From the NCBI GenBank assembly GCA_964016885.1, contig OZ024742.1, forward strand, positions 18,600,001-18,664,000: DNA of 64,000 nucleotides, in the 5' to 3' direction. The translations under genes were made by a program, and so were the position numbers. The stretch is from Eledone cirrhosa (taxonomy: Eukaryota). This document shows positions 421-57,114 of this stretch, piece after piece (within the stretch, counting starts at the first letter, position 1; the number at the start of each line of letters is the position of its first letter). Below the pieces are notes generated by a model that worked only from the letters and a program-made list of their open reading frames with translations, searched no databases and was not told the DNA's origin.

Positions 421-495
421 TTATTATTTTCATCAAAATACATACACATATGATAGTACATATATGAGTTAGTAGAATATATCGGAGGTACGTGT

Positions 496-955
496 AAAAG
501 CTAAACTCGCTACCTTTAATTCGTTATTCGCGCCAACCCTTACCTATGGTCATGAATCTTGGGTAATGACCGAAAGAATATGATCACGAATACTAGCGGC
601 CGAAATGGGGTTCCTCCGAGGGGTCTTTGAAGAAATGGGATTCGATAAAGTTCGTAGCTCAGAGATAAGAGAGTCACTCCAGGTAGAGCCGCTACTTCTC
701 CGAATTGAGAGATCACAGCTCCGATAAGATGAACATGTAGTTAGAATGTCTCAGGAAAGAATCACTGGACAGATTTTACGAGTAAAACCAACCACCAGGA
801 GACGCATAGGTAGACCACGAGCACGATGATTGGATAAAATCCATGAGCTTGGCTGGTCAAGCTTGGGGATCCAGCCGGATCAGCTGGAGACGGTTGCTTC
901 TGACAGGACCCAATGGAAGGAGTGTTTGAGGATTCTGCATCTACGACCTCATGAA

Positions 956-986
<31 letters not shown>

Positions 987-1037
987 AAGAAGAAGAAGAA
1001 GAAGAAGAAGAAGAAGAAGAAGAAGAAGAAGAAGAAG
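496..1037 (+). mobile_element. RTE-clade LINE 3' fragment (Rex3/Expander-like) with (GAA)n tail
   Basis: Translates as KAKLATFNSLFAPTLTYGHESWVMTERI*SRILAAEMGFLR...VRSSEIRESLQVEPLLLRIERSQLR...GRPRAR*LD...LGIQPDQLETVASDRTQWKECLRILHLRPHE*, followed directly by about 27 GAA repeats. Confidence 0.9.
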
Positions 1038-1059
1038 ATATCGTCTAAAGTCTGTTTGA

Positions 1060-5250: not shown

Positions 5251-6266
5251 AAAAGATTTGATACAAGTTTCACAACTCACATAAAGATTATCAGATTTGA
5301 TACAGCTTTCACAACACACCTAAAGATTATCAGATTTGATACAGGTTTCACAACACACCTAAAGATTATCAGATTTGATACAAGTTTCACAACACACCTA
5401 AAGATTATCAGATTTGATACAAGTTTCACTACACACCTAAAGATTATCAGATTTGATACAGGTTTCACAACACACCTAAAGATTATTAGATTTGATACAG
5501 GTTTCACAACACACCTAAAGATTATTAGATTTGATACAGGTTTCACAACACACCTAAAGATTATCAGATTTGATACAAGTTTCACAACACACCTAAAGAT
5601 TATCAGATTTGATACAAGTTTCACTACACACCTAAAGATTATCAGATTTGATACAGGTTTCACAACACACCTAAAGATTATTAGATTTGATACAGGTTTC
5701 ACAACACACCTAAAGATTATTAGATTTGATACAGGTTTCACAACACACCTAAAGATTATCAGATTTGATACAAGTTTCACAACACACCTAAAGATTATCA
5801 GATTTGATACAAGTTTCACTACACACCTAAAGATTATCAGATTTGATACAGGTTTCACAACACACCTAAAGATTATTAGATTTGATACAGGTTTCACAAC
5901 ACACCTAAAGATTATTAGATTTGATACAGGTTTCACAACACACCTAAAGATTATTAGATTTGATACAGGTTTCACAACACACCTAAAGATTATTAGATTT
6001 GATACAGGTTTCACAACACACCTAAAGATTATCAGATTTGATACAGCTTTCACAACACACCTAAAGATTATTAGATTTGATACAGGTTTCACAACACACC
6101 TAAAGATTATTAGATTTGTTACAGGTTTCACAATACACCTAAAGATTATCAGATTTGATACAGCTTTCACAACACACCTTAAAGATTATTAGATTTGATA
6201 CAAGTTTCACAACACACCTAAAGATTATCAGATTTGATACAGGTTTCACAACACACCTAAAGATTA
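5251..6266. repeat. 39-bp minisatellite, about 26 copies, with a 195-bp (5-unit) higher-order repeat
   Basis: Unit CACAACACACCTAAAGATTATCAGATTTGATACAGGTTT. The variant AAGTTTCACT recurs at 5421, 5616 and 5811 (period 195). Confidence 0.97.
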
Positions 6267-13014: not shown

Positions 13015-13236
13015 TAAAAGGACTGGACATAATTATAGGGACAAAAAGAGGGGACCAAAGGGTAGACCAGCTGAGAAAAATGGTTGGATAACATTCATAA
13101 GCTTGGTTGGTCTCGCTTAGGGGATCCAGCCAGATCAATTGGAGAAAGTTGCTTTTGACAGGACCTACTGGAAGGTGTGTTTGAGGACTCTGCCCACCAC
13201 GATCCTTTCAGGAAGAAGAAGAAGAAGAAGAAGAAG
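13015..13236 (+). mobile_element. RTE (Rex3/Expander-like) 3' fragment with (GAA)n tail
   Basis: Homologous to 790-1037: tggataacattcat..gcttggttggtctcgcttagggatccagcc.gatcaattggag...gacaggacc.actggaagg.gtgtttgagga, followed by (GAA)n. Confidence 0.85.
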
Positions 13237-13806: not shown

Positions 13807-14535
13807 CATACTAAAAAAGCCTACTTCAAAAATTACTGACTATTCATAAATGTACGTAAAATACAGCTTGCATACAAATTGAGAGATCAATTAATTGAAA
13901 TACGAAAGTATTGCATATTTTACAATTTAATTTTCAAAATATTATTTTAGACACTTTTCAAAATGTCAAATTTGATTTTGATTTTCTTTGAGAATATTTA
14001 CATCGTTATTAAAATATCCATCACGTATGTAAAACTTTTAAGTTGTCAGACCCAGCTGGAGGTAATTAGGTTGGTATACAGGAATTTTAATTAACTTTCA
14101 TCAAATAGTGTTCAGAAGAATTGAGTACGAATTATTGTGTGATTATTTAGCCCTCCTGCACATGCTTATAGATGATTATTACCTGTTTCTTAATAAAAGA
14201 GACAAAGATAGAACTTTTTATCTGAGATCTTATTAAATATTCTATGTAAAATGTTAATGATCTGACAAAAATGTTAGAATGTATTTCAAGTGTCGTGTTT
14301 TTTAATGGTAAAACATCGTTACAATATCTTTTAAATTTATGAAAAAAAATTGACTTCTAATTAGTTTGTGCTAGTCTACATGATATGAGTAATTATTAAT
14401 TTTCCTACAGATAATTATTATCTGTTTCATATTAGAACAGACGAAGCTAGACCTTTTTTATCTCAGATTTTAAATAGTCTAGATAAAATGTTGATTTAAA
14501 CACCCCCCCCCCCCCCCAAGAAAAAGAAAGAAAAT

Positions 14536-14751
14536 GGTTTCTGATTTAGGCAAAAGGCCAACAATTTTTGGAGGAGAGAGTCGACTAAATCAACCTCCAA
14601 TGCATTACTGATACTTTATTTTATCGACCCGGTAAGGATGAAAGGCAAAGCTAACCTCGATGGGATTTGGACTCAGAATATAAAGGGACGAAACTATATG
14701 CCACAAAGTATGTTGCGCGACGCTTTACCGATACTGCCAATCCAAGCCGCC
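14536..14751 (-). mobile_element. SINE family A abutting the RTE that hosts the satellite
   Basis: Reverse complement of the family A sequence. Its 5' end (ccaatccaagccgcc) overlaps the RTE IQAAD codons. Confidence 0.8.
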
Positions 14752-17700
14752 GACATATGGTTCCTCCGAAGCGTTTTTGGAGTAACGTTACTTGACAGAG
14801 TGTGTAGCTCGGAGATCAGAGAGTCACTCCAGTTAGAGCCGCGAGAGCATGTATCTCGGGGATCAGAGAGTCACTCCAGCTAGAGCAGCTAGAGCATGTA
14901 GCTCGATAATCAGAGAGTCACTTCAGTTTGAGCCGCTAGAGCATGTAGCTTGTGGATCAGTGTCACTTCAGTTTGAGCCGCTAGAGCATGTAGCTTGTGG
15001 ATCAGTGTCACTCCAGTTAGAGCCGCTAGAGCATGTAGCTCGGGGATCAGTGTCACTCCAGTTAGAGTTGCTACAGCATTTAGATCGGGGATCGGAGAGT
15101 CACTCCAGTTTGAGTCGCTATAGCATGTAGCACGGGGATCAGAGAGTCACTCCAGTTAGAGCCGCTAGAGCATGTAGCTCTGGGATCAGAGAGTCACTCC
15201 AGTTAGATCCGCTAGAGCATGTAGCTCAGGGATCTAAGAGTCACTACTGTTAGAGCCGCTATAGCATGTAGCACGGGGATCAGAGAGTCACTCCAGTTAG
15301 AGCCGCTAGAGCATGTAGCTCTGGGATCAGAGAGTCACTCCAGTTAGATCCGCTAGAGCATGTAGCTCAGGGATCTAAGAGTCACTACTGTTAGATCTGC
15401 TAGAACAGGTAGCTCGGGGATCAGAGAGTCACTCTAGTTAGTGCCGCTAAAGCATCTAGCTCAGGGATCAGAGAGTCACTCCTGTTAGTGCCGCTAGAGC
15501 ATGTATCTCGGGGATCAGGTAGTCACGCCAGTTAGAGCCGCTAAAGCATGTAGCTCGGGGATCGGAGAGCCACTCCAGTTAGAGCCGCTAAAGCATGAAG
15601 CTCGGGGATCAGAGACACACTCCAGTTAGAGCGTCTGAGCATGTAGCTCGGGAATCAGAGAGTCACTCTAGTTAGAGCCGCTAGAGAATGTAGCTCGGGG
15701 ATCAGAGAGTCACTCCAGTTAGAGCTACTAGAGCATGTAGATCGGGAATCGGAGAGTCACTCCAGTTTGAGCCGCTATAGAATGTAGCACGGGGATCAGA
15801 CAGTCACTCCAGTTAGAGCCGCTAGAGCATGTAGATCGGGAAGCAGAGTGTCACTTCAGTTTGAGCCGCTAGAGCATGTAGCTTGTGGATCAGAGAGTAA
15901 ATCCAGTTAAAGCCGCTAGAGCATGTATCTCGAGGGTCAAAGAGTCACTCCAGTTAGAGCCGCTAGAGCATGTAGCTCGGGGATCAGAGAGTCACTTCAG
16001 TTAGAGCTGCTAGAGCGTGTAGATCGGGGATCGGAGAGTCACTCCAGTTTGAGCCGCTATAGAATGTAGCACGGGATCAGAGAGTCACTCCAGTTAGAGC
16101 CGCTAGAGTATGCAACTCTGGGATCAGAGAGCCATTCCAGTTAGAGCCGCTAGAGCATCTAGCTAGGAGATCAGAGAGTCACTCCAGTTCGATCCGCTAG
16201 AGCATGTAGCTCGGGGATCAGAAAGTCACTCCAGTTAGAGCCGTAAGAGCATCTAGCTCGGGGATCAGAGAGTCACTCCCGTTAGATCCGCTAGAGCATG
16301 TAGCTCGGAGATCAGAGAGTCACTCCAGTGAGAGCCGCTAGAACATGTATCTCGGGGATCAGTGAGTCACTACAGTTTGAGCCGCTAGAGCATGTGGCTC
16401 GGGGATCAGTGAGTCACTTCAGTTAAAGCCGCTAGAGCGTGTATCTCGGGGATCAGAGTGTCACTCCAGTTAGTGCCGCTAGAGCATGTAGCTCGGGGAT
16501 CAGTGAGTCACTCCAGTTAGAGCCGCTGAGCATGTAGCTCAGGGATCAGAGAGTCCCTCTAGTTAGAGCCGCTAGAGCATCTAGCTCGGAGATCAGAGAA
16601 TCACTCCAGTTAGATCCGCTAGAACATGTAGCACGGGGATCAGAGAGTCACTCAGGTTAAAGCCGCTAGAGCATGTATCTTGGGGATCAAAGAGTCACTC
16701 CAGTTAGAGCCGTTGAGCATGTAGCTCGTGGATCAGTGTCACTCTAGTTAGAGCCGCTAGAGCATGTAGCTCGGGGATCGGAGAGTCACTCTAGTTGGAG
16801 CCGCTAGAGCATGTAGCTTGTGGATCAGAGAGTCAATCCAGTTTAAGCCGCTAGAGCATGTATCTTGGGGATCAAAGAGTCCCTCCAGTTAGAGCCGCTG
16901 AGCATATAGGTCGGAAATCAGATTGTCTTTCTAGTTAGAGCCGCTAGAGAATGTAGCTCGGGGATCAGAGAGTCGCTCTTGTTAGTGCCGCTAGAACATG
17001 TAACTCGGGGTTCAGAGATTCACACCACTTAGAGTCGCTAGAGCATGTAGCTCGGTGATCGGAGAGCCACTCCAATTAGAGCCGCTAAAGCATGAAGCTC
17101 GGGAATCAGAGAGTCACTCCAGGTTGAGCCGCTAGAGCATGTAGCTCGGGTATCAAAGAGACACTCTAGTTAGAGCCGCTAGAGCATCTAGCTAGGAGAT
17201 CAGAAAGTCACTCCAGTTCGATCCGCTAGAGCATATAGCTCGGGGATCAGAAAGTCACTCCAGTTAGAGCCGTAAGAGCATCTAGCTCGGGGATCAGAGA
17301 GTCACTCCAGTGAGAGCCGCTAGAACATGTAGCTCGGGAATCAGAGAGTTACTCCAGTTTGAGCCGCTAGAGCATGTGGCTCGGGGATCAGTGAGTCACT
17401 CCAGTTAAAGCCGCTAGAGCATGTATCGCGGGGATCAGAGAGTCACTCCAGTTAGAGCCGCTGAGCATGTAGCTCGGGGATCAGAGAGTCCCTCTAGTTA
17501 GAGCCGCTAAAGCATCTTGCTCGTTGATCAGAGAATCACTCCAGTTAGATCCGCTAGAACATGTAGCTCGGGGATCAGAGAATCACTCCAGTTAGAGCCG
17601 CTAGAACATGTAGCACGGTGATCAGAGAGTCACTCCAGTTAGAGCCGATAGAGCATGTAGCTCGGGGATCAGAGAGTCACTCCAGTTAGAACCGCTAGAG

Positions 17701-20700
17701 CATGTATCTCGGTGATCAGAGAGTCACTCCAGTTAGAGACGCTAGAGCATATAGCTCGGGGATCAGGGAGTCACTCCAGTTAGAGCCTCTAGAGCATGTA
17801 GCTCGGGGATCGGAGAGCCACTCCAGTTAGATCGGCTAGAGCATGTAGCTCGGGGATCAGAGAGTCACTCCAGTTAGAGCTGCTAGAATATATAGCTCGG
17901 GGATCAGAGAGTCACACAAGTTTGAGCCGCTAGAGCATGTAACTCGGGAATCAGAGAACCACTTTAGTTAGTGCCGCTAGAGCATGTAGCTGGGCGATAA
18001 GAGAGTCACTTCAGTATGAACTGCTAGAGCACGTAGGTCGGTGATCAGATAGTCACTCCAGTTAGAGCCCCTAGAGCATGTATCTCGAGGATCAGAGACT
18101 CACTCAAGTTACAGCCGCTAGAGCATGTAGCTCGGGGATCAGAAAGTTACTCCAGTTAGATCCGCTAGATCATGTAGCTCGGAGATCAGAGAATCACTCC
18201 AATTAGAGCCGCTAGAACATGTAGCTCGGGGATCAGAGAGTCACTCAAGTTTGAGCCGCTAGAGCATGTACCTGGGGGATCAGAGAATCACTCCACTTCG
18301 TGCCGCTAGAGCATGTATCTCGGGGATCAGGGAGTCACTCCAGTTAGTGCCGCTGAGCATGTAGCTCGGGGATCAGGAGTTACTCCAGTTAGAGCCGCTA
18401 GAGCATGTAGCTCGGGGATCAGATAGTCACTCTAGTTAGATGCGCTAGGGCATCTAGCTCGGGGATCAGGGAGTCACTCTAGTTAGATCCGCTAGAGCAT
18501 GTAGCTCGGGGATCAGAGAGTTACTCCAGTTAATGCCGCTGAGTATGTAGCTCGGGGATCAGAGAGTTACTCCAGTTAGAGCCGCTAGAGCATGTATCTC
18601 AGGGATCAGAGAGTCACTCTAATTAGATCCACTAGAGCATCTACCTCGGGGATCAGAAAGTCTCTCCAGTTAGATCCGCTAGAGCATGTAGCTCGGGGAT
18701 CAGGGAGGCACTCCAGTTAGAGCCGCTAGAGCATGTAGCGGGGGCATCAGAGAGTCACTTCAGTTAGATCCGCTAGATCATCTAGCTCGGGGATCAGAGA
18801 GTCACTCCAGTTAGAGCCGCTAGAGCATGTAGCTCGGGGATCAGAGAGTCATTATAGTTAGAGCCGCTAGAGCATGTAGCTTGTGGATCAGAGAGTCAAT
18901 CCAGTTTAATCCGCTAGAGCATGTATCTCGGGGATCAAAGAGTCACTCCAGTTAGAGCCGCTGAGCATATAGCTCGGAAATCAGATTGTCCTTCTAGTTA
19001 GAACCGCTAGAGCATGTAGCTCTGGGATCAGAGAATGACTCCAGTTAGTGCCGTTAGAGCATGTATCTCGAGGATCAGGGAGTTATTCCAGTTAGAGCCG
19101 CTAGAGCATGTAGCTCGGGGATCAGAGAGTCACTCCAGTTAGAGCCGCTAGAGCATGTAGCTCGGGGATCGGAGAGTCACTCCAATTTGAGCCGCTAGAG
19201 CATGTATCTCGGGGATCAGAGAATCACTCCAGTTAGAGCCGCTAGAGCATGTATCTCGGGGATCAGGGTGTCACTACAGTTAGTGCCGCTGAGCATGTGG
19301 CTCGGGGATCAGGAGTTACTCCAGTTAGAGCCGCTAGAGCATATAGTTCGGGGATAAGAGAGTCACTCCAGTTAGACCCGCTAGAGCATGTTGCGCGGGG
19401 ATCAGATAGTCACTCCAGTTAGAGCCGCTGAGTTGTAGCTCGCGGATCACATAGTCATTCTAGTTAGATGCGCTAGGGCATCTAGCTCGGAGATCAGAGA
19501 GTCACTCCAGTGACAGCCGCTAGAACATTTATATCGGGGATCAGAGAGTTACTACAGTTTGAGCCGCTAGAGCATGTGGCTCGGGGATCAGTGAGTCACT
19601 CCAGTTAAAGCCGATAGAGCATGTATCTCGGGGATCAGAGAGTCACTCCAGTTAGAGCCGCTGAGCATGTAGCTCGGGGATCAGAGAGTCACTCTAGTTG
19701 GAATCGCTAGAGCATGTAGCTCGGGGATCAGAGTGTCACTCCAGTTAGTGCCGCTAGAGCTTGTAGCTCGGGGATCAGTGAGTCACTCCAGTTCGAGCCG
19801 CTGAGCATGTAGCTCAGGGATCATAGAGTCCCTCTAGTTAGAGCCGCTAGAGCATCTAGCTCGGAGATGAGAGAATCACTCCAGTTAGATCCGCCAGAGC
19901 ATGTAACTCGGGGATCAGAGAATCACTCCAGTTAGAGCCGCTAGAACATGTAGCTCGGGGATCAGAGAGTCACTCAGGTTAAAGCCGCTAGAGCATGTAG
20001 CTCGGACATCAGGGAGTCACTTCAGTTTGAGCCGCTAGAGCATGTAGCTTGGGGATCAGAGCGTCACTTCAGATTGAGCCGATAGAACGTCACTTCAGAT
20101 CAGTGCCGCTAGAACATGTAACTCGGGGATCAGAGATTCACACCACTTAGAGTCGCTAGAGCATGTAGCTCGGTGATCGGAGACCCACTCCAATTAGAGC
20201 CGCTAAAGCATGAAGCTCGGGAATCAGAGAGTCACTCCAGGTTGAGCCGCTAGAGCATGTAGCTCGGGTATCAGAGAGACACTCTAGTTAGAGCCGCTAG
20301 AGCATCTAGCTAGGAGATCAGAAAGTCACTCCAGTTCGATCCGCTAGAGCATGGATCTCGGGGAACAGAAAGTCACTCCAGTTAGAGCCGTAAGAGCATC
20401 TAGCTCGGGGATCAGAGAGTCACTCCCGTTAGATTCGCTGGAGCATGTAGCTCGGAGATCAGAGAGTCATTCCAGTGGGAGCCGCTAGAACATGTAGCTC
20501 GGGGATCAGAGAGTCACTCCAGTTAGAGCCGCTGAGCATGTAGCTCGGGGATCAGTGGGTCACTCCAGTTAGAGTCGCTAGAGCATCTTGCTCGGGGATC
20601 GGAGAGTCACTCCAGGTAGGGCCGCTAGAGAATGTAGCTCGGGGATCGAAGAGTCACTCCAGGTAGGGCCGCTAGAGCATGTAACCCGGGAATCAGAGAG

Positions 20701-23700
20701 TCAATCCAGTTTAAGCCGCTAGAGCATGTATCTCGGGGATCAAAGAGTCACTCCAGTTAGAGTCGCTGAGCATATAGCTCGGAAATCATATTGTCCCTCT
20801 AGTTAGAGCCGCTAGAGCATGTAGCTCTGGGTACAGGGAATGACTCCAGTTAGTGCCGCTAGAGCATGCATCTCGAGGATCAGGGAGTTATTCCAGTTAG
20901 AGCCGCTAGAGCATGTATCTCGGGAATCAGAGAGTCACTCCAGTTAGTGCCGCTAGAGCTTGTAGCTCGGGGATCAGTGAGTCACTCCAGTTAGAGCCGC
21001 TGAGCATGTAGCTCAGGGATCATAGAGTCCCTCTAGTTAGCGCCGCTAGAGCATCTAGCTCGGAGATCAGAGAATCACTCCAGTTAGAGTCGCTAGACCA
21101 TGTATCTCGGGGATCAGAGAGTCATTCTAGTTAGATCCACTAGAGCATCTACCTCGGGTATTAGAGTCACTCCAGTGAGATCCGCTAGAGCATGTAGCTC
21201 GGGGATCAGAAAGTCTCTCCACTTAGATCCGCTAGAGCATCTAGCTCGGGGATCAGAGAGTCACTCCAGTTAGATCCGATAGAGCATGTAGCTCGCGGAT
21301 CAGAGAGTCTCTCTAGTCAGAACCGCTAGAGCATGTAGCTCGGGGATCAGAGAGTCACTCCAGTTAAAGACGTTAGAGCATATAGCTCGGGGATGAGGGA
21401 GTCACTCCAGTTAGAGCCTCTAGAGCTTGTAGCTCGGGGATCAGTGAGTCACTCCAGTTCGAGCCGCTGAGCATGTAGCTCAGGGATCATAGAGTCCCTC
21501 TAGTTAGCGCCGCTAGAGCATCTAGCTCGGAGATCAGAGAATCACTCCAGTTAGAGTCGCTAGACCATGTATCTCGGGGATCAGAGAGTCATTCTAGTTA
21601 GATCCACTAGAGCATCTACCTCGGGTATTAGAGTCACTCCAGTGAGATCCGCTAGAGCATGTAGCTCGGGGATCAGAAAGTCTCTCCACTTAGATCCGCT
21701 AGAGCATCTAGCTCGGGGATCAGAGAGTCACTCCAGTTAGATCCGATAGAGCATGTAGCTCGCGGATCAGAGAGTCTCTCTAGTCAGAACCGCTAGAGCA
21801 TGTAGCTCGGGGATCAGAGAGTCACTCCAGTTAAAGACGTTAGAGCATATAGCTCGGGGATGAGGGAGTCACTCCAGTTAGAGCCTCTAGAGCATGTAGC
21901 TCGGGGATCTGAGAGCCACTCCAGTTAGTTCGGCTAGAGCATGTAGCTCGGGGATCAGAGAGTCACTCCAGTTAGAGCTGCTAGAATATATAGCTCGGGG
22001 ATGGGAGAGTCACTCCGGTTAGACCCGCTAGAGCATGTAGCTCGGGGATCAGGGAGTCACTCTAGTTAGAACCGCTAGAGCATGTAACTCGGTGATCAGA
22101 GAGTCACTTCAGTTAGAACCGCTAGAGCATGTATCTCGTGGATCACTGAGTCACTCCAGTTAATACCGCTGAGTATGTAGCTCGGGGATCAGAGAGTTAC
22201 TCCAGTTAGAGCCGCTAGAGCATGTAGCTCGGGGATCAGGGGATCTCTCCAGTTAGAACCGCTAGACCATGTATCTCAGGGATCAGAGAGTCACTCCATG
22301 TTAGATCCAATAGAGCATCTACCTCGGGGATTAGACCAGGTAGCTCGGGGATCAGAGAGTCAATATAGTTAGAGCCGCTAGAGCATGTAGCTCGAGGATT
22401 TGAGAGTCACTCCAGTTAGATCCGCTAGATTATCTAGCTCGGGTATCAGAGTGTCACTCCAGTTAGAGCCGCTAGAGCATGTAGCTCGGGGATCAGGAGT
22501 TACTCCAGTTAGAGCCGCTAGAGCATATAGCTCGGGGATCAGAGAGTCACTCCAGTTAGACCCGGTAGAGCATGTAGCGCGGGGATCAGACAGTCACTCC
22601 AGTTAGAGCCGCTGAGATGTAGCTCGGGGATCAGATAGTCACTCTAGTTAGATGCGCTAGAGAATCTAGCTCGGGGATCAGGGAGTCACTTCAGTTAGAG
22701 TCGCTAGAGCATGCAGCTCGGGGATCAGAGGGTCACTCCAGTTTGAGCCGCTAGACCATGTATCTCAGGGATCAGAGCGTCACTCTAGTTAGATCCACTA
22801 GAGCATCTACCTCGGGGATTAGAGAGTCACTCCAGTTAGATCGGCTAGAGCATCTAGCTCGGGGATCAGAGAGGCACTCCAGTTATATTCGCTAGACCCG
22901 GTAGCTCGGACATCAGAGAGTCATTATGGTTTGAGCCTCTAGAGCATGTAGCTCGGGGATCAGAGAGTCACTCCAGTTAGATCCGCTAGATCATCTAGCT
23001 CGGGTATCAGAGAGTCACTCCAGTTAGAGCCCCTAGAGCATGTAGCTCGGGGATCAGAGAGTCACTCCAGTTTGAGCCGCTAGAGCATGTAGCGGGGGGA
23101 TCAGAGAGTCACTTCAGTTTGAGCCGCTAGATCATGTTGCTCCGGGATCAGAGAGTCACTCCAGTTAGAGACGCTAGAGCATGTAGCTCGTGGATCAGAG
23201 ATTCACTCAAGTTAGAGCCGCTAGAGCATGTATCTCGGGGATCAGAGAATCACTCCACTTCGTGCCGCTAGAGCATGTATCTCGGGGATCAGGGAGTCAC
23301 TCCAGTTAGTGCCGCTAGAGAATATAGCTCGGGGATCGGAGAGTCACTCCAGTTAGACCCGGTAGAGCATGTAGCGCGGGGATCAGACAGTCACTCCAGT
23401 TAGAGCCGCTGAGATGTAGCTCGGGGATCAGATAGTCACTCTAGTTAGATGCGCTAGGGCATCTAGCTCGAGGATTAGAGAGTCACTCAAGTTAGAGCCG
23501 CTTGAGCATGTATCTCGGGGATCAGGGGATCACTCCAGTTAGAACCGCTAGACCATGTATCTCAGGGATCAGAGAGTCACTCCAGTTAGATCCAATAGAG
23601 CATCTACCTCAGGGATTAGACCAGGTAGCTCGGGGATCAGAGAGTCAATATAGTTAGAGCCGCTAGAGCATGTAGCTCGAGGATTTGAGAGTCACTCCAG

Positions 23701-26700
23701 TTAGATCCGCTAGATTATCTAGCTCGGGTTTCAGAGAGTCACTCCAGTTAGAGCCGCTAGAGCATGTAGCGGGGGGATCAGAGAGTCACTTCAGTTTGAG
23801 CCGCTAGATCATGTAGCTCGGGGATCAGAGAGTCGCTCCAGTTAGAGACGCTAGAGCATGTAGCTCGTTGTTCAGAGATTCACTCAAGTTAGAGCCGCTA
23901 GAGCATGTAGCTCGTCGATCAGAGAGTCACTTCAGTTTGAGCCGCTAGAGCATGTAGCTTGTGGATCAGAGAGTCAATCCAGTTTAAGCCGCTAGAGCAT
24001 GTATCTCGGGGATCAAAGAGTCACTCCAGTTAGAGCCGCTGAGCATATAGCTCGGAAATCACATTGTCCCTCTAGTTAGAACCGCTAGAGCATGTAGCTC
24101 TGGGATCAGAGAATGACTCCAGTTAGTGCCATTAGAGCATGTATCTCGAGGATCAGGGAGTACTCCAGTCAGTGCCGCTGAGCATGTAGCTCGTGGATCA
24201 GACAGTTAGTCCAGTTAGAGCCGCTAGAGGAAGTAACTCGGGGATCAGAGAGTCACTCCAGTTAGAGCCGCTAGAGCATATATCTCGGGATCAGAGAATG
24301 ACTCCAGTTAGAGCCGCTGAGCACGTAGCTCAGGAATCAGAGACTCACTCCAGTTAGAGCCGCTAGAGCATGTAGCTCGGGGATCAGACAGTCACTCCAG
24401 TTAGTGTCGCTAAAGCATGTAGCTCGGGGATCAGCGAGTCACTCCAGTTAGAGCCGCTAGACCATGTATCTCGGGGATCAGAGAGTCACTCTAGTTAGAT
24501 CACTAGAGCATCTACCTCGGGTATTAGAGAGTCACTCCAGTGAGATCCGCTAGAGCATGTAGCTCGGGGATCAGAGAGTCATGCCAGTTAGATCCGATAG
24601 AGCATGTAGTTCGCGGATCAGAGAGTCACTCTAGTTAGAACCGCTAGAGCATGTAGCTCGGGGATCAGAGAGTCACTCCAGTTAGATCCGATAGAGCATG
24701 TAGCTCGGGGATCAGAGAGTCACTCTAGTTAGAGCCGCTAGAGCATGTAGCTCGAGGATCAAAGAGTCACTCCAGTTAGTGCCGCTTGAGTATGTAGCTC
24801 GGTGATCAGAGAGTCACTCCAGTTATATCCGCTAGACCAGGTAGCTCGGGGATCAGAGAGTCACTCCAGTTAGAACCGCTAGAGCATGTAGCTCGAGGAT
24901 CAGAGAGTCACTCAAGTTAGAGCCGCTAGAGCATGTATCTCGGTGATCAGAGAGTCACTCCAGTTAGAGCCGCTGAGCATGTAGCACGGGGATCAGAGAG
25001 TCACTCCAGTTAGAGCCGCTAGAGCATATAGCTCGGGGATAAGGGAGTCACTCCAGTTAGAGCCTCTAGAGCATGTAGCTCGGGGATCGGAGAGCCACTC
25101 CAGTTAGATCGACTAGAGCATGTAGCTCGGGGATCAGAGTGTCACTCCAGTTAGAGCCGCTAGAATATATAGCTCGGGGATGAGAGAGTCACTCAAGTTT
25201 GAGCCGCTAGAGCATGTAACTCGGGAATCAGAGAACCATTCCATTTAGTGCCGCTAGAGCATGTAGCTGGGGGATCAAAGAGTCACTTCAGTATGAACTG
25301 CTAGAGCATGTAGGTTGGTGATCAGAGAGTCACTGCAGTTAGAGCCGCTGAGCATGTAGCACGGGGATCAGAGAGTCACTCCAGTTAGAGCCGCTAGAGC
25401 ATATAGCTCGGAGATCAGGGAGTCACTCCAGTTAGGGCCGCTAGAGCATGTAGCTCGGGGATCAGAATTTCACTGCAGTTAGATCCGCTAGAGCATGTAC
25501 CTCGGGGATCAGAGAGTCACTCCAGTTAGAGCCGCTAGAGCATGTAGCTCGGGGATCAGAATTTCACTCCAGTTAGAGCCGCTAGAGCATGTAGCTCGGG
25601 GATCAGAGAATCACTCCATTTAGAGCCGCTAGAACATGTAGCTCGGGGATCAGAGAGTCACTCAAGTTTGAGCCGCTAGAGCATGTACCTCGGGGATCAG
25701 AGAATCACTCCAGTTCGTGCCGCTAGCGCATGTATCTCGGGGATGAGGGAGTCACTCCAGTTAGAGCCGCTTGAGCATGTAGCGGGGGGATCAGAGAGTC
25801 ACTTCAGTTTAGCCGCTAGATCATGTAGCTCGGGGATCAGAGAGTCACTCCAGTTAGAGACGCTAGAGCATGTAGCTCGTTGTTCAGAGATTCACTCAAG
25901 TTAGAGCCGCTAGAGCATGTAGCTCGTCGATCAGAGAGTCAATCCAGTTTAAGCCGCTAGAGCATGTATCTCGGGGATCAAAGAGTCACTCCAGTTAGAG
26001 CCGCTGAGCATATAGCTCGGAAATCAGATTGTCCCTCTAGTTAGAACCGCTAGAGCATGTAGCTCTGGGATCAGAGAATGACTCCAGTTAGTGCCATTAG
26101 AGCATGTATCTCGAGGATCAGGGAGTACTCCAGTCAGTGCCGCTGAGCATGTAGCTCGTGGATCAGACAGTTAGTCCAGTTAGAGCCGCTAGAGGAAGTA
26201 ACTCGGGGATCAGAGAGTCACTCCAGTTAGAGCCGCTAGAGCATATATCTCGGGATCAGAGAATGACTCCAGTTAGAGCCGCTGAGCACGTAGCTCAGGA
26301 ATCAGAGACTCACTCCAGTTAGAGCCGCTAGAGCATGTAGGTCGGGGATCAGAGAGTCACTCCAGTTAGAACCGCTAGAGCATGTATCTCGGGGATCAGA
26401 GAGTCACTCCAGTTAGAACCGCTAGAGCATGTATCTCGGGGATCAGAGAGTCACACCAGTTAGAGCCGCTGAGCATGTAGGTCGGGGATCAGAGAGTCAC
26501 TCCAGTTTGAGCTGCTAGAGCATGTAGCTCGGGGATCAAAGAGTCACTCCAGTTAGTGCCGCTTGAGTATGTAGCTCGGTGATCAGAGAGTCACTCCAGT
26601 TATATCCGCTAGACCAGGTAGCTCGGGGATCAGAGAGTCACTCCAGTTAGAACCGCTAGAGCATGTAGCTCGAGGATCAGAGAGTCACTCAAGTTAGAGC

Positions 26701-28948
26701 CGCTAGAGCATGTATCTCGGTGATCAGAGAGTCACTCCAGTTAGAGCCGCTGAGCATGTAGCACGGGGATCAGAGAGTCACTCCAGTTAGAGCCGCTAGA
26801 GCATATAGCTCGGGGATAAGGGAGTCACTCCAGTTAGAGCCTCTAGAGCATGTAGCTCGGGGATCGGAGAGCCACTCCAGTTAGATCGACTAGAGCATGT
26901 AGCTCGGGGATCAGAGTGTCACTCCAGTTAGAGCCGCTAGAATATATAGCTCGGGGATCAGAGAGTCACTCAAGTTTGAGCCGCTAGAGCATGTAACTCG
27001 GGAATCAGAGAACCATTCCATTTAGTGCCGCTAAAGCATGTAGCTGGGGGATCAAAGAATCACTTCAGTATGAACTGCTAGAGCATGTAGGTTGGTGATC
27101 AGAGAGTCACTGCAGTTAGAGCCGCTGAGCATGTAGCACGGGGATCAGAGAGTCACTCCAGTTAGAGCCGCTAGAGCATATAGCTCGGAGATCAGGGAGT
27201 CACTCCAGTTAGATCCGCTAGAGCATGTAGCTCGGGGATCAGAGAATCACTCCAATTACAGCCGCTAGAACATGTAGCTCGGGGATCAGAGAGTCACTCA
27301 ATTTTGAGCCGCTAGAGCATGTACCTCGGGGATCAGATAATCACTCCAGTTCGTGCCGCTAGCGCATGTATCTCGGGGATGAGGGAGTCACTCCAGTTAG
27401 TGCCGCTGAGCATGTAACTCGGGGATCAGAGAGTTACTCCAGTTAGAGCCGCTAGAGCTCATAGCTCGGGGATCAGAGAGTTACTCCAGTTAGTGCCGCT
27501 GAGCATGTAGCTCGGGGATCAGAGAGTCACTTCAGTTTGATCCGCTAGAGCATGTAGCTCGGGAATCAGACATTCACTCCAGTTAGATGCGCTAGGGCAT
27601 CTAGCTCGGGGATCAGGGAGTCACTCCAGTTAGAACCGCTAGAGCATGTAGCTCGGGGATTAGAGAGTCACTCCAGTTAGAGCCGCTAGAGCACGTATCT
27701 CGTGAATCAGAGAGTCACACCAGTTAGAGCCGCTGAGCATCTAGTTCTGGAATCAGAGAGTCCCTCTAGTTAGAGCCGCTAGAGCATGTAGTTCGGGGAT
27801 AAGGGAGTCACTGCAGTTTAAGCCGCTACAGCTTGTAACTCGGGGATCAAAGAGTCACTCCAGTTAGTGCCGCTTGAGTATGTAGATCGGGGATCAGAGA
27901 GTCACTCCAGTTAGAGCCGCTAGAACATGTAGCCCGGGGATCAGAGAGTCACTCAAGTTTGATCCGCTAGAGAATGTAGCTCGGGGATCAGAGAATCACT
28001 CCAGATAGTGCCGATAGAGCATGTATCTCGGGGATCAGAGAGTCACTCTAGTTAGATCCACTAGAGCATCTACCTCGGGGATTAGAGAGTCACTCCAGTG
28101 AGATCCGCTAGAGCATGTAGCTCGGGGATCAGAATGTCTCTCCAGTTAGATCCGCTAGATCATCTAGCTCGGGGATCAGAGAGGCTCTCCAGATATATTC
28201 GCTAGACCAGGTAGCTCGGGGATCAGAGAGTCATTCTAGTTAGAGCCGCTAGAGCATGTAGCTCGGGGATCAGAGAGACACTCCAGTTAGATCCGCTAGA
28301 TCATCTATCTCGGGGATCAGAGAGTCACTCCAGTTAGAGCCGCTAGGACATGTAACTCGGGGATCAGAGAGTCACTCCAGTTAGGGCCGCTAGAGCATGT
28401 AGCGGGGGGATCAGAGAGTCACTTCAGTTTGAGCCGCTAGATCATGTAGCTCGGGGATCAGAGAGTCACTCCAGTTAGAGACCCTAGAGCATGTATCTCG
28501 GGGATCAGAGAGTCACTTCAGTTTGAGCCTCTAGAGCATGTAGCTCGGGGATCGGAGAGTGACTCCAGTTTGAGCAGCTAGAGCGTGTAGCTTGGGTATC
28601 AGAGAGTCACTCCAGTTAAAGCCGCTAGAGCATGTATCACGGGGATCAGAGAGTCAATGCAGTTGGAGCCGCTGAGCATGTAGCTCGGGGATCAGAGTGT
28701 CACTCTAGTTAGAGCCGCTATTTCTCCGAATTGAGAGGTCACAGCTCCGATACTACTGATATGTCTTCAGAATGTCTTTGGAAAGAATCATTGGACAGAT
28801 TTTGCGGACAAAACCAATAGGCGGTAGACCCAGGGTTAGACCCTGATCAAAATGGTTGTATAATATCCTTGAATTCAGTTGGTCTCGCTTGGGGATCCAG
28901 CCGGATCAATTAGAAACGGTTGCTTCTAACACAACCCACTGGAAGGAG
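14739..28948 (+). mobile_element. RTE (Rex3/Expander-like) 3' fragment split by its own amplified internal segment
   Basis: The left flank encodes IQAADIWFLRSVFGVTLLDRVCSSEIRESLQLEP. The right flank resumes at 28721 with FLRIERSQLR...GQILRTKPIGGRPRVRP...LGIQPDQLETVASNTTHWKE. Both flanks are colinear with the unsplit copy at 590-920. Confidence 0.92.
14797..28720 (+). repeat. 47-bp satellite array, about 13.9 kb and about 296 units, derived from a LINE
   Basis: Consensus GAGCATGTAGCTCGGGGATCAGAGAGTCACTCCAGTTAGAGCCGCTA. Period checked at 15124/15171. Units are diverged and block duplications are present. Confidence 0.98.
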
Positions 28949-28954
28949 AGAAAT

Positions 28955-29045
28955 TCTATTTTATCGATTGATACTTTTTTTCGACCCTTGAAGTCCGAAA
29001 GGTAAAGTTGATCTCTCTCGGCTGGATTTAATCTCAGAATGTAAG
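28955..29045 (-). mobile_element. SINE family A fragment
   Basis: tattttatcga...tcgacccttgaagtccgaaaggtaaagttga...ggatttaatctcagaatgtaa. Confidence 0.5.
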
Positions 29046-29409
29046 CAACTGGAACAAAAATATCGAATCGTTTCTTCTGGTAATAAAAAGAACACATTCG
29101 ATAATGTAGTCCTAGATACACGATTCCTAAAAATAAATGGTTATAGCAGCAAACGTATTACACTATAAACCACGTAGTTAATGTATCAAATTTCTTAACC
29201 ATGGTGGTTCCTAACATAACATTAGGTCTGTGAATATCAGAATGGTTATATCACAACTGCTTAAGATTAGTTGCGGGACGTGAAGTGTTTATTGTAACCA
29301 AACACCAGACATGTTTATCTGAGAAACGTCGCCAGATACTATATTGTTGGTATATTTAATGATAAATAATATCCCTCTTTCTTAATGTTTTCTTTTTTTG
29401 TTTGTTTGT

Positions 29410-30692: not shown

Positions 30693-30706
30693 AATCAATT
30701 TCTAGT

Positions 30707-30756
<50 letters not shown>

Positions 30757-30758
<2 letters not shown>

Positions 30759-32097
30759 ACCAGCAGTCCAATACTGGCTTAACACACACCCATCAGAAAT
30801 ACCGACACGCATCAACACAGATTTTATCACTGACGGACTCCGCTTTATCCTACAAAATAACTACTTCACATTCAATGGTTCAACATACAGACAAGTATCA
30901 GGTACGGCAATGGGCACGAAAGTAGCACCCACATATGCCAACCTAGTCATGGGATTCCATGAACAACAAATATACAGTCAGTCCCTTCTCTTATTTGGAG
31001 ACTCTTTCCACACACACCTCAAAGCCAATTGGAAAAGATATCTAGACGACTGCTTTATCCTATGGCAAGAAGACATGAACTCACTTACTATGTTTAAAAA
31101 CATGATAAACAACATAGATAATAACATACAATTCACAATGGAATCCAATCCCAAGGAATTAGCCTTCTTGGATATTCTCATCTCTGTAATAGACGGGAAA
31201 TTAGATACAGATATATTCTATAAACCCACAGATTCCAAGCAATACCTCTTTTTCACATCAAGTCACCCAAAACATACAAAACTTAACATTCCTTACAATT
31301 TGGCCAAACGTATATGTACCATAGTATCAGATCCACCTAAACGGGAGCAAAGACTAAAGGAACTAAAAGACACCCTTATCTTAAGAGCCTTTCCACTTGA
31401 AATAATCAACAATGGAATAGACAGGGCAAAACACCTAAATCCCCATCAACTTAACAATCCAAAACAGAAAACCACACTCAACACCCTGCCATATGTATCC
31501 ACTTTCAACCCCAGAAATACCGAAATGTTTGATCACCTACACAAAAACCTCCCCATCCTACTTAAAGATGTAAAAATGAAGTCTATTCTTGAAACACAAG
31601 ATCCTTAAAAGTAAAAGACAACCCAAATCACTAAAACGCATTCTCACTGGACCAAATATACCCAAACCAATCCTCAACCCTACAGTTACCAAATGTGGTA
31701 GAACAAACTGTGGAACGTGCCTCTACCTCACTGAAGGACAAAATTTACATTTAAAGATGGCCAAACATTTACAGTAAAAAACAATTTCACCTGCAACTCG
31801 GAGAACTTGATTTATGCAATAACTTGCGGTGGGTGCAAACACAACTACATAGGACAGACGGGCTCCACATTACGCAAAAGAATGACCATCCACCGCCAAC
31901 AAATCCGGGACGCTAGCATAAGAAAAATCCCCTTGAGCAGCCATATTGCGAACTGCGCAGGAATGACACTACCCAACTTTAAAATCTTCCCCTTCTACAA
32001 GTGCTCAGATTCGTTCACACAGCAATAAAGAATAAACAAAGAAAATCTATTCCTTAACAAATTTAAACCAAAACTAAACGGGTTATCACCCCAATAG
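30757..32097 (+). pseudogene. PLE reverse transcriptase / GIY-YIG endonuclease, frameshifted
   Basis: NNYFTFNGSTYRQVSGTAMGTKVAPTYANLVMG, WKRYLDDCF, FLDI, IFYKPTDSKQYLFFTSSHP, Cys linker KCGRTNCGTC and LIYAITCGGCKHNYIGQTG...RMTIH. Split over three frames, with a stop at 32026. Confidence 0.93.
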
Positions 32098-36889: not shown

Positions 36890-37139
36890 GATATGAACAG
36901 ATCACAGTCCCGATACTACAATTATATGGTTAGAATGTCCCAGGAAAGAATCATTTCACTGATTTTAGGGTCAAAATCAAGAGCAGGAGAGATGGTTGGA
37001 TAACATTCATGAACTTGGCTGGTCTCGCTTGGGGATTCAGCCGGATCAATTACACACGGTTGTTTCTGACAGGACCCACTGGAAGGAGTGTTTGAGGACT
37101 CTGCCCCCACGACGCTCTTAGGAATAAGTGGGCGAAGAA

Positions 37140-37141
<2 letters not shown>
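36890..37141 (+). mobile_element. RTE (Rex3/Expander-like) 3' fragment
   Basis: Homologous to 705-960, with an internal deletion. Ends in gaagaaga. Confidence 0.85.
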
Positions 37142-38599: not shown

Positions 38600-41500
38600 T
38601 GTTGTATGGACTGGGAATCGAACTCACAACCTCATTGTTGTATGGACTGTTAAATTCGTTTTGTTCGGTTTGCACGTGCTCACACATTTGCATATGGGTC
38701 ACGTGACCTGGGCAGTCGGTCAGCGTTGGTATTAAAAACTCGGTCACAGACTACTTACTTACTTTATGTTATTCTGCTACTGCGAGGAGGGACGTTTTGG
38801 TTGTTTCGCAAATTACACAAATTATTTGATATAACTCGTTGTGTTTTTTCTGCGAGTACCGAGAGGAATACAACAGAGTTTACTGGCGTCGCCGATAGGA
38901 TTTACCTACATTGCCGATAGGATTTACCTACATTGCCGGGAAATTGTTTATCATAAAAACATGGCGGAACAACAAACAGCGGACCTAATAAAGTTGTTTA
39001 GAGAACAGATGGAACAACAGAGTTTATTGGCGTCGCAACAAATGCAACAACACAAGAAAGATATGGACACTCTAATAAAACTGTTTGGTGCTCGAGATTC
39101 TGAACAACAGAGTTTATTGGCGTCGCCAGTTGCTTCGACAGCAACATCATTCATCCCACCATTTGCTGCTTTTAATTCAACAACAGAACTATAGCCTGAT
39201 TACTGGTCAAGATTCTGCACGTTTGTGGCTGCTAACGCTGTACCTGAGCAACGCATGACACAAGTGTTCCTGACTAATCAGACGGCTGCTATCTACAAAC
39301 AACTTGCAAATCTGGCTGCTCAACAAAGTCCGCCTAAGAATATCAACAAGTTGACAATGGACGAAATTGTTGACTTCATGAAAGAACAGTTCGACCCAAA
39401 ACTTTTCATTGTGAGAGAACGTTTCAAGTTCTGGAGTGACATGCAACGGAAGCCAGGCGAAACTCTCCAGGAGCTGGCAGCACGTATACGTCAGGATGCA
39501 GCTACCTGTAATTTTCCTTCGATCACACATCCACAAGATGAAGCTCTAAGATAGAGATTTATATGTTCTGTCAATAATGAAGCTGTGTTGAAGGCTATTT
39601 TCAAGATCAAGGATACAGAACTAGATTTCGCCCGTGCTGTCCAAGTTGCCATCGGGACCGAAGACGCAGCAAAGGTTGCCAAGGAAACTGTTTACGATTC
39701 CAAAACCAAGCAAGTCTACAAGGTCCAGCAGAACAAGAACAAGGGTCCTCGAAAGAACTATCAGCAGTCTTATTCCACAGACCAGGAGATGTGCTACCGA
39801 TGTGGAAAGGCCCACAAAGCGACAGACTGCCCCTTCAAAGAAGCCAAATGTCATTTTTGTGACAAAAAGGGACATTTGCAAGCGGAATGTAGAAAGAAAC
39901 AACATCAGCAACGTAATCATCGCTCACAGAATTACGTAAAAAGAATCACGAAAGCTGAGCTAGTCAAGGCGATCCTTGGTGAAGTTTCCCACGATACTCA
40001 TAGTTTGAATGTGCCAATAACAATCCAGAACAGACTTTTCACAATGGAATTGGACACAGCTACTACAGGCAATTTTGTTTCCTTGTCAGTTTGGAAACAA
40101 TTAGGAAAACCGAAGCTGCAAGATGTCAAACATCGGTTTGAATCTGCCAGCAAGCACGACCTGCCCGTTCTGGGAACTTTCATGGGCCAAACCAAGGATC
40201 CAACGACCGGTAAACGGAATTCAATACCCTACATCGTCACCAAGATCCCTGATCTTAATTTGCTGGGACGAAATGTTATCCAGACTCTGGGAATTTCCGT
40301 GGACAATGCTCTAGGATTGAAAAGCATAGACAGCCAGGCCAAGAGTGAGGGTGCAGAAGTGATGCATCCAAAGACCTCAAATGAGCCCTATATTTCCATG
40401 CAACGATATTGTCACAACCAGTGTGATGAATTCCCAGATCTCTTCAAGCAAGAATCGGGATGTCTTAATGACTTCGAACTGGAAGTGAAGTTCAAGTCGG
40501 ACGCGACACCGGTCTTTCACAAGGCACGCCCGGTCCCGTTTGCTCTTCGTGATGACCTGGCCAAAGGTTACGAAGAAGGCATCGCCAAAGGAATCTGGAA
40601 GCCAGTACAGTTCAACGAATACGGAACGCCAGTGGTACCGATTCGTAAAGCACATACTTCAGGCAACCTGAAGCCCAAACTACGGATTTGTGGTGACTAC
40701 TCTGTGGGAATTAATGACCAACTTGCAGATCATCGTCATCCAATGCCACTCCCAGAGGAACTGATGCAGAAGCTCGGGGGTGGATTCGGATACACAAAGA
40801 TTGATCTTGCTGATGCCTATAATCAGATCAAGCTGGCTCCAGAAAGTCAACGCAGGCTTGCACTCAGCACTCACCGTGGGGTGCTCCTGCAGGAACGACT
40901 CCCTTTCGGAATCAAGTCAGCACCTGGTTACTTTCAGGAGATCATGGAAAACCTGACTCAAGATCTACCTGGTGTGGCCGTCTTCCAGGACGACATGCTC
41001 GTCAGTGGGAAAGATGCAAACGATCACCTGAACAACCTAAAGTGTCTGCTCACACGTCTGTGCGACAAAGGACTCAGATGTCGCTGTGACAAGTGCCAGT
41101 TTGCACTACCCAGTGTGGAATACCTTGGACACACCTTGTCGGCTGAAGGGATCGCGAAGGGATCCAAGGTCGAAGCAGTTTTAAAGATGCCACCTCCAAC
41201 GAACGTCTCAAGCTTGAAGTCTTTCCTGGGTTCAGTTCAGTTCTATGGAAAGTTTATCCCAAACCTGGCCAGCATGGCAGAGCCACTCTATTGCCTTACG
41301 AAAAATACGACTACTTGGAAGTGGGGAGATGAAGAACAGTCAGCTTTCGATCAGTTGAAAAATGTGCTTTCATCGGATCAAGTTCTGATACACTTCGATC
41401 CAAACAAAACTTTGGGACTGGCTTGCGACGCGTCAAACGTTGGTATTGGAGCAGTCCTGTTTCATCGCTATCCTGATGGAAGCGAGCGCCCAATATCCAA

Positions 41501-47100: not shown

Positions 47101-47330
47101 GACTGTTCTCCGTAGGTCGGAATATGTGAGTGATTCACCGCCTGGAGCCAGGCTGGTGTCTCTCTCCTTTTTCCAGGAATGTAGGAAACCGGGATGATGC
47201 TCACTTTAGCACCGGTGTCGACCAGGAAACGCGTGTCTGTGACGCGATCCTGAATGAAAAATAGGCGACTTTGGTTATCAGGGCCAGAAACGTTCGTCGC
47301 ATTCAGTTTCTGGCTGTATCGTTTCCCTGA
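44162..47330 (-). pseudogene. pol (protease, RT, RNase H, integrase) of the CsRn1-like element; disrupted
   Basis: [62 protein letters not shown] and NGMVERLHR, spread over several frames. Confidence 0.93.
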
Positions 47331-48178: not shown

Positions 48179-49051
48179 CGTTTGTAGTGGATGATCAGAA
48201 GGTTGTGTGTCTGTTTTACGGGGTCAACAGTTGTAACGGAATATTATGTGTGGTTGTAACGATAAGTGGATGGATAGATGTAACTGTTGGTATGGTGGTT
48301 TCGATGTAAAGAAAAATACCAGGATTGTGTTGTTACAAAGTTTATTTTATTATAACAATATTCAATTTGAATATTGAATGATAAAATCAATGACACAAAA
48401 TATTCATACAATAATTTGGTGGCTATCGAGCCACGTAAATTCAAGTATCACAGAATATGATTATATATGTGTAAACAGAAATGAATGGTGCGTGTACAGA
48501 TGCTGGACTCACTATGAATGCGTGTGTGCGGCGTATCAGTATATTTACTTATTTGTATTGCAGGAGTCAGCGATCAGCCAGGAAGGTGAGAATAAGTGGC
48601 AGACTGGTTTTTCGTGACGAGGGCTTGTAAATGCGACTTGTCTTGTCTGTATATCACTTCTTTTCTATTCGAGGCGTAAACAATCCCTGTATTTATAAGA
48701 GTTGAAGTTAGAAGGATATATATATCCTCTGAACTTTGGTTAGTCTCCCAAGGGATTAGTTTGCCAAGCGTAAACAAGTCAGAAAGATGGATATATCCTC
48801 TGACCTATTTTCTGTCAGGCGTAAACACCTCTGACCTGTGTTTAGCCTCTCCCAAGGGGTTAGTCTCTTGAGCATAAACAAGTTACCACGGCTTGTCCCA
48901 GAGGCGGGAAAGCTCAGATTCGGTTTCGAATCTTCGCCGCCGTTATATATGTATATATATGTATATATATGTGTATGTGTGTATATATCCCTATATATAT
49001 GTGTGTGTGTTTGTATATATGTATATATATATATATATATGTATGTGTGTT

Positions 49052-56955: not shown

Positions 56956-57019
<64 letters not shown>

Positions 57020-57022
57020 TAT

Positions 57023-57113
<91 letters not shown>

Positions 57114-57114
<1 letters not shown>

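What the first reader, a model, noticed from the sequence alone, without database searches (positions are those of the whole stretch)
14739..28948. A 14-kb satellite caught at its birthplace inside a LINE coding sequence
Seen: the 47-bp unit equals the RTE segment AGAGTGTGTAGCTCGGAGATCAGAGAGTCACTCCAGTTAGAGCCGCT (codons RVCSSEIRESLQLEPL). The same LINE copy continues in register on both sides of about 296 units, and an unamplified sister copy at 496-1037 shows the ancestral single-unit state. Established: satellites can arise from transposons. Inference: this is the founder locus, where a fragment of about 330 bp grew by in-situ amplification to about 14.2 kb. Array-wide changes (GAGTGT to GAGCAT, GGAGAT to GGGGAT) were fixed early, because the leftmost unit keeps the LINE state.
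Basis: partly seen in the sequence, partly recalled or inferred. Interest (0 to 1): 0.85.

Follow-up and report, generated by a model that had tools for sequence, protein, structure and literature searches.

The report
Orphan satellite grown inside a LINE
A 47-base piece of a dead LINE retrotransposon is repeated 299 times (14 kb) with the same LINE continuing on both sides, so it most likely grew in place; it occurs nowhere else in the assembly, while a neighbouring piece of the same LINE forms a far larger satellite elsewhere.

Summary
A 47-bp unit is repeated 299 times at 14797-28719, inside a 333-bp LINE ORF2 fragment whose flanks continue in register in DNA and protein.

The array is single-locus: all 200 junction matches (up to 3 mismatches) in the 3.0-Gb assembly lie in this window. 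So this is a birthplace, but it founded no family.

Units differ 8.6% from their majority and are shuffled, with recent block duplications. That fits in-place duplication after insertion, then growth by recombination (inferred).

The larger result lies outside the window. The same ~140-bp LINE segment carries tandem repeats in 10 of 65 sampled copies and none elsewhere in the element. An adjacent 65-bp unit is a real satellite: 15,757 exact junction copies, with arrays from 3 units inside intact LINE copies to over 300 kb. A 123-bp duplication was present in some copies at insertion.

TE-derived tandem arrays are well known, so this is a clean but ordinary member of a known kind. The family-wide series is the testable part.

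The parts
14739..14796 (+). Left LINE flank: 5'-truncated ORF2 C-terminal region, upstream of the repeated piece
   Evidence: Aligns to sister 589-646 and to P0005 from residue 825
14797..14843 (+). Unit 1: keeps family letters at unit columns 5, 6, 17 but already shares two derived letters (columns 7, 37) with the array
14844..28719 (+). Units 2-299 of the 47-bp array; 8.6% from column majority; 248 distinct among 294 near-full units
20955..21888 (+). Recent tandem block duplication of 10 units (133-142 = 143-152), 1 difference
23947..27219 (+). Region of recent block duplications: 23947-24364 ~ 25912-26329 (9 units, 3 differences) and 24740-25442 ~ 26517-27219 (15 units, 6 differences)
28720..28948 (+). 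Right LINE flank: ORF2 continues in register, then stops about 40 bp short of the tail
   Evidence: P0005 860-936
481..1038 (+). Paralogous single-unit LINE copy with (GAA)n tail (953-1038), used as the coordinate reference. The 47-bp unit is its 647-693, the 65-bp satellite unit its 699-763, the 123-bp unit its 654-776
14533..14738 (.). Very high-copy short interspersed repeat abutting the LINE fragment (SINE identity recalled, not tested)
   Evidence: depth up to 10^7

Best explanation
This is a single-locus array of 299 copies of a 47-bp piece of LINE ORF2, lying between the two in-register halves of one truncated LINE copy, and it likely arose in place after the LINE had inserted. Step 1 (remnant shown, event inferred): a 5'-truncated, RTE-type LINE inserted and aged. 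Step 2 (inferred): a tandem duplication of 47 bp formed at a 2-bp microhomology, by slippage or end-joining. Step 3 (inferred): the second, slightly changed unit expanded to a long array early, giving a star-like unit phylogeny. Step 4 (pattern shown, mechanism inferred): unequal exchange and gene conversion shuffled variants and duplicated blocks of 3-15 units, some very recently. The edge unit was left out of this turnover. The array never spread and has no sign of function. It is one outcome of a family-wide tendency of this ~140-bp LINE segment to form tandem repeats.
For: Flanks are colinear in DNA and protein. The junction is unique: 13 of 13 exact, 24 of 24 degenerate (LINE-state or array-state) and 200 of 200 three-mismatch hits lie in the window. 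Two derived letters are shared by unit 1 and the array, so they predate the duplication; three are array-only. Host flanks are 14.1% (42/297 non-CpG sites) from the family majority, while units are 8.6% from their own majority, so amplification began well after insertion. Differences per unit are Poisson-like (mean 4.1, variance 3.4 over 168 lineage clusters) and similarity does not decay with distance (7.2-7.4 differences at every lag). 111 of 150 common variant pairs show all four combinations. Block duplications are 0.2-4% diverged. Exact microhomology at the junction is 2 bp.
Against: Some copies of this family were inserted with a duplication already present (123-bp type), so a dimer made at insertion cannot be excluded here, and the lost 3' end removes the TSD test. 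The dating rests on 47 and 297 sites. The four-gamete pattern could partly reflect recurrent mutation. The array spectrum is transversion-rich (ts/tv 0.76, CI 0.54-1.05, against 1.71, CI 1.41-2.06, in dispersed copies), so array divergence may overstate its age. 146 of 299 units have a near-identical twin, so up to a few kb could be assembly-made duplication.
Confidence: 0.8

Rival explanations
1. The first 47-bp duplication was made during reverse transcription (template slip or jump) or was carried by a rare source element. Only the later growth happened in place.
For: In this family, 8 of 15 examined 123-bp carriers with a 3' end start with a partial unit, and 3 of these 8 are bounded by 10-13-bp TSDs, so that duplication was in the inserted cDNA (chance rate 0.45% in mismatched pairs). 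Breakpoints of the 47, 123, 111 and 29-bp types lie within 8 bp of each other.
Against: No other copy in the assembly has the 47-bp junction in either state. Unit 1 and the array share derived letters, one a CpG decay. Unit 2 onwards carries an A>G change far from the junction.
Confidence: 0.13
2. A pre-existing satellite from elsewhere inserted into, or gene-converted, a LINE copy at the homologous segment, so the flanks are not the birthplace.
For: Flank-less arrays of a LINE-derived unit exist for the 65-bp type, so such units can occur away from LINE flanks.
Against: No donor array exists in the assembly. Both joints are exact and in register, with no gain or loss of LINE sequence.
Confidence: 0.04
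3. The array length is largely an assembly artefact.
For: Near-identical blocks exist (1 difference in 467 bp). No long reads were available.
Against: 248 distinct units and 168 lineage clusters cannot come from collapsing or duplicating a short array. Short-read contigs of runs X1 and X2 carry the junction in 66 contigs each, though they may be the assembly's own sample.
Confidence: 0.03

Closest known systems
Single-locus TE-derived tandem repeats (human survey, PMC3389668; passages read)
   Same: An internal piece of a TE repeated in place. That paper counts 7,276 TE-derived repeats, most clusters single-locus, and notes TE-internal hot spots, including LTR12 where the repeat was spread by transposition.
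   Different: Here the source is the coding 3' end of an RTE-type LINE, the array has 299 diverged units (that survey required at least 95% unit identity), and the junction has only 2 bp of microhomology.
Ogre LTR-retrotransposon-derived satellites of Lathyrus sativus (10.1101/677575; abstract read) and pea PisTR-A (PMC9659126; section 6 read)
   Same: Short arrays inside a dispersed retrotransposon occasionally expand into long arrays. This matches the 65-bp and 123-bp series found here.
   Different: Those lie in LTR elements (the 3' UTR for PisTR-A); here they lie in a LINE ORF2. The 47-bp array itself was never dispersed.
LINE-derived satellites: chicken HinfI (CR1 ORF2 + 3' UTR), Phodopus PROsat and seal Pvc20 (L1 ORF2), cetacean common satellite (L1 3' end) (PMC9659126; section 6 and table passages)
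   Same: The monomer derives from a LINE, in some cases from ORF2.
   Different: In the passages read these rest on monomer similarity. Here both flanks of the host copy remain in register. That review finds no conclusive evidence that specific TE portions preferentially generate repeats, whereas here all sampled events fall in one segment.
Haber-Louis short-repeat model of minisatellite birth (as described in PMC6947457; passages read)
   Same: A first duplication followed by growth through slippage, conversion or unequal crossing-over.
   Different: The model needs 5-10-bp flanking direct repeats. Exact microhomology is 2 bp here and 0-4 bp at seven junction types.

Membership tests
TE-derived single-locus tandem array | Head-to-tail units homologous to an internal TE segment | tested here: met
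   The unit majority differs from the family majority at 5 of 47 columns
TE-derived single-locus tandem array | Host TE continues colinearly on both sides | tested here: met
TE-derived single-locus tandem array | Confined to one locus | tested here: met
   200 of 200 junction hits in the window; assembly only, unassembled DNA untested
TE-derived single-locus tandem array | Repeat absent from the typical family copy | tested here: met
   53 single-unit copies; junction absent elsewhere
Dispersed satellite DNA family (founder locus) | Daughter arrays at other loci | tested here: not met
Dispersed satellite DNA family (founder locus) | Heterochromatic or centromeric location | not testable with these tools
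   No chromatin data; neighbouring 20 kb on each side held no long satellite array
Higher-order repeat satellite | Regular multimeric period along the array | tested here: not met
   Block offsets are irregular (3, 10, 17, 35, 38, 42, 67...), no constant period
RTE-clade LINE (host) | Single ORF with AP endonuclease and RT (10.1101/2022.11.04.512097, PMC13295347; passages) | tested here: inconclusive
   Homologues P0005/P0006 are 945/1024-aa proteins with Exo_endo_phos + RVT_1. No full-length copy from this genome was examined, so absence of an ORF1 is untested.
RTE-clade LINE (host) | 3' microsatellite tail in place of poly(A) | tested here: met
   (GAA)n tail just after the ORF end in the sister and most copies printed; lost from the host copy itself
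RTE-clade LINE (host) | RT phylogeny places it in the RTE clade | not tested
   No named RTE reference was available from the tools; the RTE label rests on architecture, tail and a recalled C-terminal motif
Haber-Louis minisatellite birth | 5-10-bp direct repeats bounding the unit | tested here: not met
   2 bp exact

The most novel reading that the evidence does not exclude
One ~140-bp stretch near the end of this LINE's ORF2 is a built-in satellite nursery. Duplications form there during reverse transcription or in active source elements, and retrotransposition seeds them across the genome. They then expand in place into every stage, from dimers inside intact LINEs to this 14-kb orphan and to flank-less arrays over 300 kb, with a 65-bp satellite of at least 1 Mb. 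The genome would then hold a replicated natural experiment on why some TE-born arrays become satellite families and others stay orphans.
Probability: 0.4. Interest if true: 0.7.

Novelty: new member of a known kind. Interest (0 to 1): 0.45.

Why it matters
The array alone is an unusually clean, large example of a known process: the ancestral sequence, the breakpoint and the edge unit can all be read. It matters more as one member of a series. The same LINE segment has yielded at least seven repeat units (47, 123, 65, 99, 111, 67, 29 bp) with very different fates. Ancestor, junction and flanks are known for each, so questions that are usually untestable can be asked directly: whether certain TE segments are prone to tandem duplication, whether retrotransposition seeds arrays, and what lets one unit become a megabase satellite. 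A 2022 review (PMC9659126) states that conclusive evidence for preferred TE portions is lacking.

Tried and rejected

Pfam found nothing in three short LINE pieces. The protein atlas gave only unnamed clusters.

A subfamily signature for 123-bp carriers was sought in 15 carriers against 53 single copies. No diagnostic column was found (best P 0.003 over about 290 columns, at a CpG), so a master element and recurrent template jumping could not be separated.

RNA structure in the hot segment was not significant (z -0.83). Purine/pyrimidine strand asymmetry in the array was not significant by site (P 0.13). No regular higher-order period was found. No coding potential: longest open frame 97 aa.

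No TSD of 10 bp or more in three 65-bp, two 99-bp and one 111-bp carrier (best 9 bp, L006).

A third sample of longer copies had 0 of 9 duplications (11 loci fetched besides the query's own, 9 reached the segment), which lowers the rate from 10/56 to 10/65.

Cross-species test inconclusive: run X4 (organism B) holds the orthologous left flank 13915-14495 (47 differences), but the contig ends before the LINE. It showed no junction-bearing contig at 14843, against 66 each in X1 and X2; contigs do not prove absence. Only the left edge (13850-14940) was laid, so the array interior and right edge are untested with reads. No RNA holder listed. No long reads were available. No earlier findings for this genome.

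Six literature searches listed no paper on this satellite or on RTE-derived cephalopod satellites; the library is incomplete, and no supplements were read.
Full report
Observation. TRF reports a 47-bp array at 14803-28720 with 295.9 copies. Wrap-around segmentation gives 299 units from 14797 to 28719. The left flank plus unit 1 and the last unit plus right flank align colinearly to the paralogue at the start of the window, at about 78%. A homologue search with a natural family copy found 7 proteins among 195 candidates, including 945- and 1024-aa ORFs with endonuclease and RT domains. The window's left part matches residues 825-858 of P0005 and the right part 860-936. The array therefore interrupts the C-terminal end of a LINE ORF2 with nothing lost or gained. 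Family copies end in (GAA)n just after the ORF, which fits the RTE clade as described in 10.1101/2022.11.04.512097 and PMC13295347 (passages); no RT tree was made. The organism is not given. An octopus is my guess from a recalled SINE motif and genome size (3.0 Gb), and nothing below depends on it.

Is it a founder? A BLAST-type search missed even the window's own array, so junction patterns were used. An exact 28-mer gave 13 hits, a degenerate pattern allowing the LINE state gave 24, and three mismatches gave 200. Counts inside the window were 13, 24 and 200. The array is thus alone in the assembly. It was born here but founded nothing.

History of the array. Near-full units (294) are 8.6% from the column majority and 15.6% from each other; 248 are distinct and one equals the majority. 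After collapsing recent twins, 168 clusters remain, with Poisson-like differences. Similarity is flat with distance. This suggests an early expansion followed by long divergence. On top lie irregular block duplications of 3-15 units at 0.2-4% divergence, and 111 of 150 common variant pairs show all four combinations, as expected from unequal exchange and conversion (inferred).

Against 40-47 single-unit copies per column, the array majority differs at five columns. Host flanks are 14.1% diverged at non-CpG sites, against 7.2% for the sampled family copies, which are best hits and so biased low. Amplification thus seems to have begun part-way through the copy's life. Exact microhomology at the junction is 2 bp.

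Two oddities remain. CpG decay is 44/592 in the array against 332/816 in dispersed copies and 5/17 in the host flanks, which fits an unmethylated or younger sequence. The array is also transversion-rich (ts/tv 0.76 against 1.71), which is unexplained and may reflect only 47 sites or error-prone repair synthesis.

The family context. In two samples of family copies, 4 of 29 (query overlapped the segment) and 6 of 27 (query outside it; two duplicates and the sister removed) carried tandem duplications. All 10 fall in sister coordinates 161-300 (window 641-780) and none in the other two thirds of aligned LINE sequence. Flanking DNA had 22 arrays in 148 kb, predicting 1.0 where TRF saw 8 (P 1e-5). 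These events are not independent, since only four junction types (123, 65, 99, 111 bp) are involved. A third sample of longer copies had 0 of 9. Further types (67, 29 bp, and 104 bp derived from 123) came from the unit-biased search. The genome is rich in minisatellites in general, so part of the story is a permissive background.

The 123-bp junction has 389 exact hits on many contigs. Of 15 carriers with a 3' end, 8 begin with a partial unit, and 3 of those 8 are bounded by 10-13-bp target-site duplications, one with a 5' inversion. Matches that long occur in 0.45% of mismatched pairs and 6 of 56 true pairs. That duplication was therefore in the inserted cDNA. No diagnostic sites mark carriers as a subfamily. 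The 123, 99 and 111-bp types keep the reading frame; the 65, 47, 67 and 29-bp types do not.

The 65-bp junction has 15,757 exact hits, at least 1.0 Mb and probably more, since only 0-57% of units were exact in sampled arrays. Arrays with both LINE flanks have 3, 13 and 31 units (L091, L016, L131). Arrays of 26.5 kb and at least 19 kb on C1 keep one flank. A 5.7-kb array has no detected flank. One array starting at C1:417,443,899 without a 5' flank is continuous for 122 kb, is present in probes to 417,751,000 and is gone by 417,800,001. These arrays are more homogeneous (2-5% from majority) than the 47-bp array. Only the first 100 hits were listed, so most of this satellite was not located.

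Other genomes. Run X4 (organism B) holds the orthologous left flank at about 8% difference, but its contig ends before the LINE. It showed no junction-bearing contig, whereas X1 and X2 (one sample, possibly the assembly's) showed 66 each. If B truly lacks the array, the array was either lost there or is younger and faster-mutating than its 8.6% spread suggests. This is unresolved.

Comparison and verdict. TE-derived tandem repeats, TE-internal hot spots and spread of repeats by transposition are described (PMC3389668, passages). So are satellites from LINE ORF2 (PMC9659126, section 6 and passages) and expansion of arrays inside dispersed retrotransposons (10.1101/677575, abstract). PMC13282606 (passages) and PMC6947457 (passages) were also consulted; the first has no satellite analysis. 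Six searches listed no description of this family. The finding is real and well preserved but of a known kind, and 0.85 overstates it. Its value lies in the series it belongs to. Interest 0.45.

Noticed in passing
G000:C1:417,443,899 to at least 417,751,000 (L118-L130, L133-L136); also L116, L131, L132, L141-L142, L144-L147: A 65-bp satellite from the adjacent LINE segment (window 699-763 equivalent): 15,757 exact junction copies genome-wide (3365 forward, 12392 reverse), with arrays from 3 units to about 310-356 kb. Most copies were not located.
   Followed up: partly
L004, L034, L054-L066, L079, L086, L102: A 123-bp in-frame (41-codon) duplication family with one junction, 389 exact hits, 2 to at least 17 units; some copies 5'-truncated inside the array with TSDs; L079 has a 5' inversion.
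   Followed up: partly
L006, L100 (99 bp); L013 (111 bp); L031 (67 bp); L033 (29 bp); L069 (104 bp); G000:C2:397,660,753-397,662,371 (84-bp spacing of the 123-bp junction): Further repeat units from the same LINE segment; 104 and 84 bp look derived from the 123-bp unit.
   Followed up: partly
L147:2849-10000 (C1:30,557,849 onward): The 65-bp array abuts an unrelated 33-bp satellite of at least 220 copies.
   Followed up: no
window 5254-6266: A 39-bp x 26 minisatellite, 96% matches, open in one frame on each strand (349 and 302 aa of pure repeat); probably non-coding.
   Followed up: no
window 39555-43221 (+) and 44162-48223 (-): Two LTR-retrotransposon-like coding regions facing each other (RT and RNase H; integrase by Pfam; gypsy-like order by eye), with stops or frameshifts.
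   Followed up: partly
window 13061-13236 and 36899-37141: Two more fragments of the same LINE family (81% and 73% to the sister).
   Followed up: no
window 30706-31608 and 57014-57838: A Penelope-like RT fragment (by eye; no Pfam hit) and a mariner-like transposase remnant (HTH_48).
   Followed up: partly
family copies L002-L103: CpG decay ranges from 1/19 to 18/20 among copies with similar non-CpG divergence, which suggests mosaic germ-line methylation by locus.
   Followed up: no
window 28949-29060: The LINE's 3' end is replaced by a fragment resembling the short repeat on the left side, joined at a similar purine-rich motif; possibly a deletion junction.
   Followed up: no
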